This document shows positions 8,901-20,900 of a stretch of DNA of 64,000 nt, one piece after another. How positions within the stretch are numbered: the first letter of the stretch is position 1; every line of letters begins with the position of its first letter. Origin of the DNA: Hormiphora californensis (lineage: Eukaryota > Animalia > Ctenophora); NCBI GenBank assembly GCA_020137815.1, contig CM035362.1:4092001-4156000 (forward strand), in the 5' to 3' direction. The position numbers and the translations under genes were made by a program. The notes under the pieces were generated by a model. It searched no databases, was not told where the DNA came from, and worked only from the letters and a program-made list of their open reading frames with translations.

Positions 8901-11900
8901 ATTGAATATGATGAGGGGGGTCTAGTTGTTAACCCAGCTAGTATCCCAGTCTTCCCTACTCCGAGAGTTGGTACTACTAATACTCACGGGATCGTAACGT
9001 GGTACTATTCATAATCCTATAAACAACCAATCAGAGCTCGTTATTTAGGTCACGTGACTGTTTATCAGCCAATCAGGGACCAGTATTTCCTGATTCGGGT
9101 AGCTGAGATTTATGCGGGATACTCACGGGATCGTAACGTGGTGCTGTTCATAATCCTATAAAGCACCGCTGCACTCATGGCTTCCACCGCCTCTGCGTGA
9201 CTTCCACACTGGTATAATAACTTTGCGGACTGGGAGTGCAGGGGTAGGAGGTCGAGGGGCAAGTAGGTGGAGAGGGAGGTGAACAGGGCCGTGTGGAGTG
9301 TAGATCTGTTAACCGGTTCTGGGAGGGAGTCAGTTGTTAGATAATTTAATGAATTGACAAAACGCATATAAATCCGATATTAGTTTAATTTACTAGAATG
9401 TTGATTGATAAACGGGTGAAACTATGGCAACTATGGTAACCACTAGTTGCAACTATGGTAACCATGGTAACCACTAGTTGCAGCTATGGTAACCATGGTA
9501 ACAAACAAACAAACCTGTTTCAGTGGTGGATATCTCAGAAATGTAGACAATATCCGAGTTCAATGCTGGCCTGGAAGGATGAACACCAGATTTGTGCCAA
9601 ATCAACTCGCTGGTCAGCAACCGCTGTGATAACCGTACATTCCCCTGAGAGAGAGAGAGAGAGAGAGAGAGAGAGAGAGAGAGAGAGAGAGAGAGAGAGA
9701 GAGAGAGAGAGAGAGAGAGATAGAGAGAGAGAGAGATAGTGTGTGAGAAGTAAGTTCAAAGAAGAAAGGTCCACAAAAAGCCAATAATTGTTTCTACAAA
9801 CCAGTAATATAATATTTCGCCAGTATAAAAAATTTACCTGTTTCCGTGCTAGTTTGGCTACAGAAACCCCCAGATTAAGCACCATTTGACTGGTTAGGGT
9901 GTTCCGTCCCATCTCCCCGCATGGTTCAAAGTACTGATAGAGATGCTGTACATAACGGTACAGGTTCATAAAGGCTCCCACCTCGTTTGTGGACGGAGAA
10001 AGTGACCATTCATCCTGAAAATCGAGAGGTTTGGAAAATAATAACACCAATCATATTTAGCTCAAACCATGCGATGTTGCTAAGACCTAAGCGTGCCGCG
10101 TGGGAGGTTGCTTCCTACAAGCCTTGTACAAGGTGGTCCATAAATTAACAATCGCGGATAGCATCATAATAATCGCGGATAAGTAATCCCGGGTTGAGAC
10201 AAGCTGAAGCTCCAAAGAGGTGACAGCTACGAAAACATTTGTATTTACCGTGGTCAGATTTAGAGGTACGCCAGTGGGTGCTTTTACAGTGTCACACAAC
10301 AGCAGTTGGTGAAGGGCAGATACACACTGTAGTTGTACAGCGGTTCTACCAGGCAACATTACTGGGAGATCAATACCCGCAATACGAACACCGACCTGAG
10401 GGAGGGGAGATTAGTATTATACCAACATTTAGGGGGCCACCTGTCATTGTGGGGAGGGGGAGATATTTAGTATTGTAACCATTAAATACCAGCAATACGA
10501 ACACCGACCTAGGAGAGGGGGATATTAGTATTATACCAACATTCAGGGGGCCACCTGTCATTGTGGGGAGGGGGAGATATTTAGTATTGTAACCATTAAA
10601 TACCCGCAATACGAACACCGACCTAGGAGAGGGGGATATTAGTATTATACCAACATTTAGGGGGCCACCTGTCATTGTGGGGAGGGGGAGATATTTAGTA
10701 TTGTAACCATTAAATACCCGCAATACGAACACCGACCTGAGGGAGGGGATATTAGTATTATACCAACATTTAGGGGGCCACCTGTCATTGTGGGGAGGGG
10801 GAGATATTTAGTATTGTAACCATTAAATACCCGCAATACGAACACCGACCTGAGGGAGGGGATATTAGTATTATACCAACATTTAGGGGGCCACCTGTCA
10901 TTGTGGGGAGGGGGAGATATTTAGTATTGTAACCATTAAATACCAGCAATACGAACACCGACCTGAGGGAGGGGATATTAGTATTATACCAACATTTAGG
11001 GGGCCACCTGTCATTGTGGGGAGGGGGAGTATTGTAACCATTAAATACCAGCAATACGAACACCGACCTAGGAGAGGGGGAGATTAGTATTATACCAACA
11101 TTTAGGGGGCCACCTGTCATTGTGGGGAGGGGGAGTATTGTAACCATTAAATACCAGCAATACGAACACCGACCTGAGGGAGGGGATATTAGTATTATAC
11201 CAACATTTAGGGGGCCACCTGTCATTGTGGGGAGGGGGAGATATTTAGTATTGTAACCATTAAATACCCGCAATACGAACACCGACCTAGGAGAGGGGGA
11301 TATTAGTATTATACCAACATTTAGGGGGCCACCTGTCATTGTGGGGAGGGGGAGATATTTAGTATTGTAACCATTAAATACCCGCAATACGAACACCGAC
11401 CTGAGGGAGGGGATATTAGTATTATACCAACATTTAGGGGGCCACCTGTCATTGTGGGGAGGGGGAGATATTTAGTATTGTAACCATTAAATACCCGCAA
11501 TACGAACACCGACCTGAGGGAGGGGGATATTAGTATTATACCAACATTTAGGGGGCCACCTGTCATTGTGGGGAGGGGGAGATATTTAGTATTGTAACCA
11601 TTAAATACCCGCAATACGAACACCGACCTGAGGAGAGGGGATATTAGTATTATACCAACATTTAGGGGGCCACCTGTCATTGTGGGGAGGGGAGATATTA
11701 GTATTGTAACCATTAAATACCCGCAATACGAACACCGACCTAGGAGAGGGGGATATTAGTATTATACCAACATTTAGGGGGCCACCTGTCATTGTGGGGA
11801 GGGGGAGATATTTAGTATTGTAACCATTAAATACCAGCAATACGAACACCGACCTAGGAGAGGGGGATATTAGTATTATACCAACATTTAGGGGGCCACC

Positions 11901-17900: not shown

Positions 17901-20900
17901 ATTTAGGGGGCCACCTGTCATTGTGGGGAGGGGGAGATATTTAGTATTGTAACCATTAAATACCCGCAATACGAACACCGACCTGAGGAGAGGGGATATT
18001 AGTATTATACCAACATTTAGGGGGCCACCTGTCATTGTGGGGAGGGGGAGATATTTAGTATTGTAACCATTAAATACCCGCAATACGAACACCGACCTGA
18101 GGAGAGGGGGATATTAGTATTATACCAACATTTAGGGGGCCACCTGTCATTGTGGGGAGGGGGAGATATTTAGTATTGTAACCATTAAATACCCGCAATA
18201 CGAACACCGACCTGAGGAGAGGGGATATTAGTATTATACCAACATTTAGGGGGCCACCTGTCATTGTGGGGAGGGGGAGATATTTAGTATTGTAACCATT
18301 AAATACCCGCAATACGAACACCGACCTGAGGGAGGGGAGATTAGTATTATACCAACATTTAGGGGGCCACCTGTCATTGTGGGGAGGGGGAGATATTTAG
18401 TATTGTAACCATTAAATACCCGCAATACGAACACCGACCTAGGAGAGGGGGATATTAGTATTATACCAACATTTAGGGGGCCACCTGTCATTGTGGGGAG
18501 GGGGAGATATTTAGTATTGTAACCATTAAATACCCGCAATACGAACACCGACCTGAGGAGAGGGGGATATTAGTATTATACCAACATTTAGGGGGCCACC
18601 TGTCATTGTGGGGAGGGGGAGATATTTAGTATTGTAACCATTAAATACCCGCAATACGAACACCGACCTGAGGGAGGGGAGATTAGTATTATACCAACAT
18701 TTAGGGGACCACCTGTCATTGTGGGGAGGGGGAGATATTTAGTATTGTAACCATTAAATACCCGCAATACGAACACCGACCTGAGGGAGGGGGGATTAGT
18801 ATTATACCAACATTTAGGGGGCCACCTGTCATTGTGGGGAGGGGGAGTATTGTAACCATTAAATACCAGCAATACGAACACCGACCTGAGGGAGGGGATA
18901 TTAGTATTATACCAACATTTAGGGGGCCACCTGTCATTGTGGGGAGGGGGAGTATTGTAACCATTAAATACCAGCAATACGAACACCGACCTGAGGGGGA
19001 GATTAAAAATGGAGAAAAGAACAGGTTATATTATGTTGAAATAATAACCATTGAAAACCTCAAATAGCAACCAGAAACATACCTCATCAACCAACCCCAT
19101 ACCAAAAAACCTACCTCAACTAAAGATGAAGCCTGTCGAAGGAGTTTTCTGAACACAAACTCAGGCCCCTTTTCAACAGCGCTATCCGGGTGCTCCATGT
19201 CTTCACTATAACTCCCCACATCACTTCTCAGGTCTGTATTCGCCATGTTAGCCAACTGGGGTGGTAACATGGTGTTATTACAAGGGAACATGTTTCTTGT
19301 TTTCTTGATCTAGCTGAGAATTCGATTTCAAAGTTCCTAGTTTTCCGAAAATGTTCCCCCGTGCCCTCAAATTCGTCTAAGGTGTTCATATACCCAGCAA
19401 GAGCAGTCCCTGATCCAGCTGATAAAATGATGTGTCCCCAAACCAGACAGCTGGTGGTTTACTACAGGAGTTACGCGGTAGTGTGCGCGCCATCAAACGC
19501 AGAACAGTGCTGGACCAGTGTACTTTATTCGTTTCAAACACTGTGCGCGTGCCATCCATTTACCCTCCAATATGTGACAAAAACCCGCACTGTGACATAA
19601 TTGTGCGTTTTAAAAAACTTCAGAAAAGGACTAAAAAAGTGTTAGTTGGAGAAAAAAGAAAGGTTCATCACCTGTAGATCACCCCCATTGTGATACAATC
19701 CACAGACACGTAACAGTTGGAGTTGTGAGAGATAGAGCAGTTTTACTGGATCAGCCAGACTGGGGACGTCAAGTTCTAGAGGCAGATGGTTCACCCTTAC
19801 ACCACCTTTTCTTGAGAGCTCGTCTGTGATAGCGTTTATACTGCCGCCCGGTACCTAAATGAGGGAGATGTTGAATGAAAACGTTTTTCAGTTGAGATTA
19901 TAGTGTCCATTATCGTCATATCTTATCTGCATACAATGCGCGAGAAAAATATCGAGAACAATATTCGAAAACAATACATCATTATTTCTTATCTTACACT
20001 TTCTAGATGAGTGGCAAGTGCCCCGAAATCTCCCATATCAAAAGCATGAAGAGCACGTAGGTAGTGTCTATTAAATGGGGTACTATCAGTATATATATCA
20101 GCTGAATTGTCCTCCGACCAAGCAAGGGTTTCCTCCCAATCGGACAACGCTGGAAAGATATTTAGGTTTAGAGAGAGTTACATATGTTTAGAGAGATGGT
20201 TAGAGGTGTTTAGAGAGATGGTTAGAGGTGGTAAGTGGGGTTTGTTGGGACCGTGAAGGGGGGTCAGGCTAGAGGAGCGTTTTACCCTGGTAGTAACCTG
20301 TTAAATCACCCAAACTATGATAAAGTATCTAGAGATTCTAACATGCCAAATGACCCACACTAACATGCCGAATGACATACTAACATGCCAAATGACCCAC
20401 ACTAACATGTTGTTATATGTTTTAACATACCCATGTAACATTCCAATCCCTGTTGTGCTATAAACTGCTTCTCTTCTCTACAACCGGCCGATTCAAGGCT
20501 ACTCTTGTACAAGTCCGCTGCGTCCTCATACCTTCCACTTGCCTGGAGAGTTTATCAGTTTAGATAATTCCCCTTTTGCAACTTATCCCAGTGTACCACC
20601 CTCAATGTGTTTGCCTAGCTCGACCGTATTTCGGGCGCCCCGCCCCTTTATTACAAATGTAAAGGGAGGGTTAGAACATAACAAGCATGTGTGGTATCTG
20701 AGCTGGGGTCACCACCGAGTCAGTGGTACTGACCTCCCCCCGTATTTCGTATTAGTTTGCAGTTCTTACCTGGCACCTGCAATCTGCATCCTACTACCTC
20801 ACCCCCGGTATTACACACTTGTTCCATGGGCAGAATTTGGCAAAATTTAGGCTGAATTACGCCTTTTAGGCCGAATTCTGCGGCCGAATTACGCCGCAGA

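What the first reader, a model, noticed from the sequence alone, without database searches (positions are those of the whole stretch)
10372..19114. 8.6-kb satellite made of ~76 copies of an SMG1 3' splice site plus exon start
Seen: the unique intron is only ~124 nt (19114-18991). It is followed by ~76 units, each with CTAAT, a pyrimidine tract, YAG and the exon's first 24 nt; only the last unit continues into the exon. Every upstream acceptor gives VGVRIAGI then in-frame TAA. Inference: the spliceosome must either skip ~75 near-identical proximal acceptors or ratchet through them, since each junction is AG|GT (joining yields GAG|GTCGGT, a weak regenerated donor). Mis-spliced products would be NMD targets in the NMD kinase's own gene, so copy number could tune SMG1 output. 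Caveat: almost any intron read-through meets a stop.
Basis: partly seen in the sequence, partly recalled or inferred. Interest (0 to 1): 0.85.

Follow-up and report, generated by a model that had tools for sequence, protein, structure and literature searches.

The report
Splice-acceptor mirage repeat in comb-jelly SMG1
A 114-base piece spanning an intron end and the next exon's start in a comb-jelly SMG1 gene is repeated 76 extra times inside the intron, but five other introns of the same gene carry smaller repeats of the same kind, so it is likely a tolerated repeat of a type known from lancelets ("mirage") that the cell likely splices past, not a special self-regulation switch.

Summary
The array is real. 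There are 77 acceptor-plus-24-nt copies (18990 to 10395, minus strand), and only the last continues into the exon. The unit is high-copy in DNA of two samples.

The gene is ctenophore SMG1. The 19115-to-10395 join matches Bolinopsis and Mnemiopsis proteins and a spliced contig of a diverged relative. No RNA of the array-bearing genotype could be examined.

Six of 35 introns of this gene show the same anatomy, plus one block duplication (null 0 of 1188). This is the amphioxus "mirage" class (PMC3087553). The scan has already reported it in urchin, annelid and octopod DNA, and exon echoes elsewhere in this genome.

Most likely it is a tandem duplication amplified as a minisatellite and tolerated because only the last acceptor defines a full exon (inferred). 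Ratcheting is not excluded but gets no support: the regenerated donor is weak, and 2 of 6 such introns lack AG|GT. Autoregulation is unlikely, because the stop-bearing messages would lack the kinase.

What is new is a large ctenophore case, in a short-intron gene whose first decoy lies 124 nt from the donor.

The parts
19115..19255 (-). Upstream SMG1 exon (exon 25 of my model), ending at the donor of the array intron
   Evidence: X8 contig on 19109-19171
18991..19114 (-). Unique 124-nt part of the intron, ending in the first decoy acceptor
   Evidence: acceptor score 13.5 bits
10372..18996 (-). Mirage minisatellite: 76.3 units of 105-115 nt, each the first 24 nt of the exon plus about 90 nt ending in branch-like motif, pyrimidine tract and YAG; 76 decoy acceptors
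11968..12077 (-). Variant unit with a 2-nt insertion; no stop at codon 9, first stop at codon 159
10396..10508 (-). Last upstream unit; its acceptor (10508) would give a 260-nt exon with a stop, within this gene's exon size range (84-267), so a predicted leak site
10249..10395 (-). Productive 147-nt exon, 98% identical in protein to Bolinopsis SMG1-like P0014
33019..33147 (-). Acceptor mirage in intron 3 (1 decoy, 79 nt; exon does not start with GT)
26138..26235 (-). Acceptor mirage in intron 12 (1 decoy, 71 nt)
22280..22690 (-). Acceptor mirage in intron 17 (6 decoys, diverged)
7245..7578 (-). Acceptor mirage in intron 33 (80 nt x 4.6; 4 decoys)
6530..6840 (-). Acceptor mirage in intron 34 (2 decoys by script, a third seen by tblastn; exon does not start with GT)
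5961..34394 (-). SMG1 5' half, 36-exon hand model; open for 1598 codons using the last acceptor at every intron; one-base frame break near 6486; kinase half not in the window

Best explanation
This is a tandem repeat of an intron-end/exon-start junction (a "mirage" minisatellite) in a ctenophore SMG1 gene, which likely grew by ordinary repeat turnover and is likely harmless because the spliceosome would join the donor at 19115 directly to the last copy. Shown: the anatomy; the same anatomy in five other introns of the gene; the productive join in related ctenophores; silent-only exon polymorphism in array-bearing samples. Inferred: a short duplication across the acceptor was amplified and homogenised by unequal exchange or slippage. 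Inferred: the last acceptor wins because it alone is followed by the rest of the exon and a donor 147 nt away (exon definition); nothing upstream of exon base 25 distinguishes it. Inferred: any leak, expected mainly at the first and penultimate copies, makes stop-bearing RNA that NMD removes, with no regulatory role.
For: (1) Acceptor decoys occur in 7 of 35 introns of this gene (six mirages and one two-exon block duplication), against 0 of 1188 mismatched exon/intron pairs; donor decoys in 2 of 35. (2) The model is open for 1598 codons with the last acceptor everywhere, and all 14 listed decoys of the other five mirages lead to stops. (3) P0014, P0016 and P0017 have the same junction peptide as 19115 joined to 10395. 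The one X8 contig laid there leaves the upstream exon straight into the productive exon's peptide, and another X8 contig skips intron 27, so X8 is spliced RNA. (4) Exon differences in DNA runs X4/X5 are silent in 11 of 11 codons, and 8 of 8 in a minor X5 contig, so the gene has been under purifying selection. (5) Four of 76 decoys equal the true site from -60 to +24, so the deciding information must lie downstream. (6) The 8-nt-short unit is 38% by contig depth in X5 (2302.6 vs 3788) but 5 of 76 in the window, a weak hint of VNTR-like turnover. (7) Same class in amphioxus, reported not to disturb splicing. Human CBS 844ins68 uses the distal of two duplicated acceptors (passage).
Against: No RNA of the array-bearing genotype was examined. 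X8 is only about 80-86% identical (9 of 63 and 29 of 148 letters differ) and may lack the array; its contigs have depth 5-6 and would drop rare forms. The first decoy is 124 nt from the donor in a gene with median intron 243 nt and outscores 31 of 36 true acceptors, so the donor would have to ignore it for 8.6 kb. In human gamma-globin constructs with duplicated sites only the proximal copy was used (as cited in PMC1557585). Each unit has a donor-like site at +20 (6.9 bits, above 14 of 36 true donors), so decoys do not wholly lack a partner donor. The assembled allele has a one-base frame break near 6486 and no kinase half in the window; whether these are assembly faults was not tested.
Confidence: 0.74

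Rival explanations
1. Ratchet or rescue route: the donor is first joined to a proximal copy, the regenerated AG|GT donor is re-used, and the intron is removed in steps until the real exon is reached. This would make GT-starting mirages tolerable and free to expand.
For: All 77 sites have the minimal pyrimidine-YAG|GT motif used to nominate recursive sites (PMC10156609 passages). The regenerated donor has +5G and +6T and scores 4.4 bits, above 4 of 36 true donors. The three largest mirages (76, 6 and 4 decoys) all start with GT. The first decoy is very close to the donor.
Against: C at +3 occurs in 0 of 36 true donors. Seven of 28 ordinary junctions of the gene regenerate a better donor. GT starts are not enriched (4 of 6 vs 10 of 28, p = 0.20). 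Two of 6 mirages cannot ratchet at AG|GT, yet only their last copy fits the frame. The same donor is regenerated at the productive junction and must stay silent there, since all three homologues keep the exon.
Confidence: 0.12
2. The array is a burden on, or a symptom of, a weak or decaying SMG1 allele: many transcripts are mis-spliced and lost, so copy number lowers SMG1 dose without being adaptive.
For: Frame break near 6486 and missing kinase half in the window. Human junction VNTRs leak at the copies nearest the true site (6-16, CBS; passages), and a cited title links the CBS 31-bp VNTR to lower activity (reference list only).
Against: 1598 open codons at 65-67% identity; exon polymorphism silent in 11 of 11 codons; the unit is high-copy in both samples examined; other parts of the window also look frameshift-prone (LINE at 51-54 kb, by eye), which suggests assembly error.
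Confidence: 0.07
3. Adaptive NMD autoregulation: mis-splicing into the array makes NMD targets in the NMD kinase's own gene and tunes SMG1 output by feedback.
For: 75 of 76 decoys give a stop at codon 9. NMD-factor mRNAs including SMG1 rise when NMD is impaired in human cells, and smg-1 in C. elegans (PMC3783168 passages).
Against: That feedback is linked to features such as long 3' UTRs, which leave the protein whole. A message stopping near residue 1220 lacks the kinase (1992-2257 in P0017), so stabilising it restores nothing. Every decoy in the five other mirage introns also gives a stop. The array appears to vary in make-up between haplotypes.
Confidence: 0.04
4. The array length is an assembly expansion of a much shorter repeat.
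For: No contig spans the array; the assembly has a scaffold gap and probable errors elsewhere. Single-contig depth ratios in X5 suggest roughly 12-26 units per haploid genome in S2 (my estimate, uneven coverage).
Against: 26 distinct unit variants among 76 units; unit-to-unit junctions and very high depth in three runs of two samples. A smaller array in S2 fits length polymorphism equally well.
Confidence: 0.03

Closest known systems
Amphioxus 'mirage' minisatellites (BflGb6 acceptor mirage, Adh3, TnC, PGBD5; PMC3087553 and PMC3902484, passages read; the original Adh3 paper not read)
   Same: Tandem units made of the intron 3' end plus the exon 5' part, carrying splice signals; regular splicing reported undisturbed; copy number differs between haplotypes; several loci per genome.
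   Different: BflGb6 has 3-6 units of 150-160 bp; here 76 units over 8.6 kb, in a ctenophore, and six such introns in one gene. Correct splicing is shown here only in relatives.
Human CBS 844ins68 (duplicated intron 7/exon 8 acceptor; passage in PMC1802585, primary paper not read)
   Same: Duplicated 3' splice site in which the distal copy is selected.
   Different: Two copies only; G runs between the sites promote the distal choice there. Such an element was not tested here.
Human junction-spanning VNTRs at donors: F7 IVS7, CBS IVS13, 6-16, LAMIN B2, PDGF (PMC1557585 abstract and passages)
   Same: Identical reiterated splice sites; the copy adjoining the intact exon is the one used; any leak is at the nearest copies.
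   Different: Mirror image (donor side); 5-25 copies.
Recursive splicing and RS-exons (PMC10156609 passages)
   Same: Pyrimidine tract-YAG|GT motif inside an intron.
   Different: Use is untested here; the regenerated donor is weak; the sites are recent-looking repeat copies, not shown to be conserved.

Membership tests
Mirage minisatellite | Tandem repeats whose unit spans an intron/exon boundary of the host gene | tested here: met
   gene model
Mirage minisatellite | Copies retain splice signals | tested here: met
   77 of 77 sites have YAG; internal copies score 12.8-17.1 bits vs 16.9 for the true site
Mirage minisatellite | Regular splicing uses the authentic boundary copy | tested here: inconclusive
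   Join seen in three homologous proteins and one contig of diverged RNA run X8; no RNA of the array-bearing genotype examined
Mirage minisatellite | Length or composition varies between haplotypes | tested here: inconclusive
   Short unit 38% by depth in X5 vs 5 of 76 in the window; contig depth is a crude measure
Mirage minisatellite | Concerted evolution inside, boundary copies less homogenised | tested here: inconclusive
   97% unit identity; 10 edge vs 66 middle units 2.9 vs 1.9 distance, p = 0.09; first copy shares only about 7 intron bases with the true acceptor
Mirage minisatellite | Recurs at several loci of the genome | tested here: met
   6 of 35 introns of this gene plus one block duplication; null 0 of 1188. 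Only this gene was surveyed with a model.
Recursive (ratchet) splice sites | Pyrimidine tract-YAG|GT motif | tested here: met
Recursive (ratchet) splice sites | Regenerated donor of usable strength | tested here: inconclusive
   4.4 bits, above 4 of 36 true donors; +3 C in 0 of 36 (small matrix from this gene)
Recursive (ratchet) splice sites | Lariats, intermediate junctions or saw-tooth coverage | not testable with these tools
   Only contigs were served; no raw or nascent RNA
NMD-factor feedback loop | The NMD-sensitive message encodes functional protein | tested here: not met
   Stop near residue 1220; kinase at 1992-2257 of P0017
NMD-factor feedback loop | Message rises when NMD is inhibited | not testable with these tools
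   needs experiment

The most novel reading that the evidence does not exclude
The comb-jelly spliceosome really does land on proximal copies and re-splices from the regenerated donor, so the SMG1 intron is removed along a chain of up to 76 ratchet points born from a repeat. AG|GT mirages would then be self-rescuing and free to expand, and array length would set splicing delay and SMG1 dose between individuals.
Probability: 0.1. Interest if true: 0.8.

Novelty: new member of a known kind. Interest (0 to 1): 0.28.

Why it matters
As a tolerated mirage it extends a repeat type described in lancelets and humans to ctenophores; my searches listed no ctenophore case. It is also a natural test of splice-site choice. 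There are 76 strong acceptors, the first 124 nt from the donor, in a gene whose median intron is 243 nt. If only the last is used, cross-exon definition would dominate even over short introns in an early-branching animal, and one RT-PCR or long-read run would show it. The case for special SMG1 regulation is weak.

Tried and rejected
No whole genome is held, so no genome-wide survey and no search for the 3' half of SMG1 was possible.

No RNA holder listed for 18997-20330.

X7 (organism B) covered only 2 of 30 bins, on a repeat: uninformative.

An array-free allele was looked for among loose ends and not seen, but both tables were cut (5 and 2 rows not shown). Contigs reach only 26-30 letters into the last copy, short of the tool's 31-letter rule for bridging.

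Protein search with exon 21371-21189 found nothing among 10 candidates (only proteins up to 2000 aa). The representatives search gave 3 single-exon gene calls and 3 weak unrelated hits.

The metagenome scan gave one locus, L001, a chance 17-residue match, so conservation of the array in other ctenophores is untested.

Pfam on 53 minus-strand ORFs of 1-5960 gave no kinase hit, and tblastn with P0017 1691-3367 gave no hit at E <= 1.

Derivation of the unit's 90-nt intron part from the unique intron tail was not significant (65 of 500 shuffles as good); its two halves resemble each other.

Clustering of TCAG and CTAG units along the array was borderline (581 of 10000 shuffles).

Donor scores printed were mis-framed and discarded; one search is the corrected run.

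A model-free scan for repeated acceptors cannot tell real acceptors from other repeats and was not counted.

Supplements of PMC3087553 (mirage alignments) and PMC8527503 were not opened and may bear on the comparison.
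Full report
Observation. On the minus strand the donor at 19115 is followed by 124 nt of unique intron and then a tandem array at 18996-10372 (period 114, 76.3 copies, 97% matches). It holds 77 sites of pyrimidine tract, YAG and the exon's first 24 nt; only the copy at 10395 continues into the 147-nt exon. Of the 76 upstream copies, 75 stop at codon 9 and one (12077) at codon 159. The 76 units fall into 26 variants, differing mostly in the pyrimidine tract, an 8-nt indel and one silent codon position.

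Is it real DNA? In runs X4 (sample S1) and X5, X6 (sample S2, another study) the unit is covered at summed depths of about 10,000-129,000 against about 30-1,900 in the flanks, and unit-to-unit junctions are seen. S1 may be the source of the assembly. S2 differs from the window at several places and counts as the one independent sample. Contigs reach 26-30 letters into the last copy, just short of the tool's bridging rule. The short unit makes up 38% by contig depth in X5 (2302.6 vs 3788) but 5 of 76 units in the window, a weak hint that arrays differ between haplotypes. The count of 76 is not independently verified.

The gene. Two of 16 stretches hit Pfam SMG1. A hand model of 36 exons (34394-5961) reads open for 1598 codons when the last acceptor is used at each intron and is 65% and 67% identical to Bolinopsis microptera SMG1-like P0014 and Mnemiopsis leidyi P0017. 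The neighbouring hinge-protein gene best matches a Pleurobrachia bachei record (85%), so the organism is a ctenophore. The three homologues carry the junction peptide given by joining 19115 to 10395. One contig of run X8 leaves the upstream exon directly into the productive exon's peptide (loose end translated by eye), and another skips intron 27, so X8 is spliced RNA. X8 is however only about 80-86% identical and may lack the array, so this confirms the exon structure, not how an array allele is spliced. Exon differences in the DNA runs are silent in 11 of 11 codons. Against an intact allele: a one-base frame break near 6486 and no match to the kinase half in the window; both are unresolved.

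The decisive context. The same anatomy recurs in this gene. Copies of acceptor plus exon start lie upstream of the real acceptor in 7 of 35 introns (3, 12, 17, 25, 33, 34, and 16 as part of a two-exon block duplication), against 0 of 1188 mismatched exon/intron pairs. Donor copies occur in 2 of 35 (null 1 of 1188). All 14 listed decoys of the five other mirage introns lead to stops. The array is therefore the extreme of a local mutational habit. An earlier scan note reports exon echoes on another piece of this genome (e1-10417509), and others report the same arrays in urchin, annelid, octopod and other genomes, with up to about 840 copies; these are unchecked AI notes.

Known class. The term and papers came from those notes; I then read the passages. 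PMC3087553 (passages) defines amphioxus 'mirages' as minisatellite-like duplications of intron/exon boundaries, with 3-6 units at the BflGb6 acceptor, haplotype length variation, concerted evolution and no interference with regular splicing. PMC3902484 (passages) repeats this for Adh, TnC and PGBD5. Human parallels are CBS 844ins68, where the distal of two duplicated acceptors is selected (passage in PMC1802585; PMC2630376 passages only confirm the 68-bp duplication), and the donor-side VNTRs of F7, CBS, 6-16, LAMIN B2 and PDGF (PMC1557585 abstract and passages). Searches listed no ctenophore case. The 12 of 15 passages shown from the Hormiphora genome paper PMC8527503 do not mention one.

Mechanism. 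With a small matrix from this gene's own sites, the decoys are strong: first 13.5 bits (above 31 of 36 true acceptors), internal 12.8-17.1, true 16.9; four copies equal the true site from -60 to +24. The information that marks the true site must therefore lie beyond exon base 24: the exon body and the donor 147 nt downstream. That is exon definition (described in PMC1557585; its application here is inference). It predicts leak mainly at 18990 (nearest the upstream donor) and 10508 (a 260-nt pseudo-exon, within the gene's 84-267 range), as human junction VNTRs leak at the nearest copies. Points against: the median intron is 243 nt and the first decoy is 124 nt from the donor; duplicated gamma-globin sites used the proximal copy (cited); each unit has a donor-like site at +20 (6.9 bits).

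Ratcheting. The motif is present (PMC10156609 passages). But the regenerated donor scores 4.4 bits (above 4 of 36 true donors; C at +3 in 0 of 36), 7 of 28 ordinary junctions regenerate a better one, GT starts are not enriched among mirages (4 of 6 vs 10 of 28, p = 0.20), and two mirages lack AG|GT. The three largest mirages do start with GT, which keeps a rescue role open (0.12).

Autoregulation. NMD-factor feedback is real and is linked to features such as long 3' UTRs (PMC3783168 passages). Here the NMD-sensitive message would stop near residue 1220, before the kinase (1992-2257 of P0017), so relieving NMD would not restore SMG1 (0.04).

Verdict. Observation confirmed; interpretation partly supported. 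A large mirage minisatellite in ctenophore SMG1, most likely tolerated (0.74); a new member of a known kind; interest 0.28. Its value is as a ready-made test of acceptor choice in an early-branching animal.

Noticed in passing
window 1-5960 (minus strand): No trace of the SMG1 3' half (P0017 residues 1691-3367, with kinase and FATC) downstream of the last modelled exon; it may lie beyond the window or the assembly may be broken here.
   Followed up: partly
window 6480-6495: One-base frame break inside a conserved SMG1 exon; assembly error or real, not tested.
   Followed up: partly
window 24792-24110 vs 22848-22155: Two-exon block of SMG1 duplicated in tandem; the upstream copy of the second exon has indels, so again the last copy is the intact one.
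   Followed up: partly
window 56104-56198 (+), 33809-33710 (-), 9110-8987 (-): A short palindromic dispersed element sits at splice sites: it supplies the donor of SMG1 intron 2, and at 56104 and 9110 it is followed by a copy of about 36-37 nt of the preceding exon end, possibly insertion-made introns or donor echoes.
   Followed up: no
window 37540-37000 (-): Cytochrome bc1 hinge protein gene upstream of SMG1; the Mnemiopsis homologues have adjacent locus numbers (G019250, G019251), suggesting conserved linkage.
   Followed up: partly
window 29731-30468 (+) and 22940-23383 (+): ORFs of 245 and 147 codons on the opposite strand inside SMG1 introns 6 and 16; possible nested genes or elements, no Pfam hit.
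   Followed up: no
window 28571-28541 (-): 20-nt duplication of an exon end at a donor in which the second copy lacks the GT.
   Followed up: no
window 42470-48390 and 59200-63250: Cluster of related C2H2 zinc-finger-like genes on both strands, partly duplicated, with a 100-N scaffold gap near 45409-45508 (read by eye).
   Followed up: no
window 38534-40957 (+) and about 50400-54420 (+): Two LINE-like elements: one with an open 807-codon reverse-transcriptase-like frame, one with many frameshifts (labels from recalled motifs).
   Followed up: no
window 9829-9979 and 19668-19807, run X5: Very high silent-site divergence between alleles in sample S2 (9 differences in 140 nt; a minor contig with 11 in 151), consistent with an extremely polymorphic species or a second individual.
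   Followed up: partly
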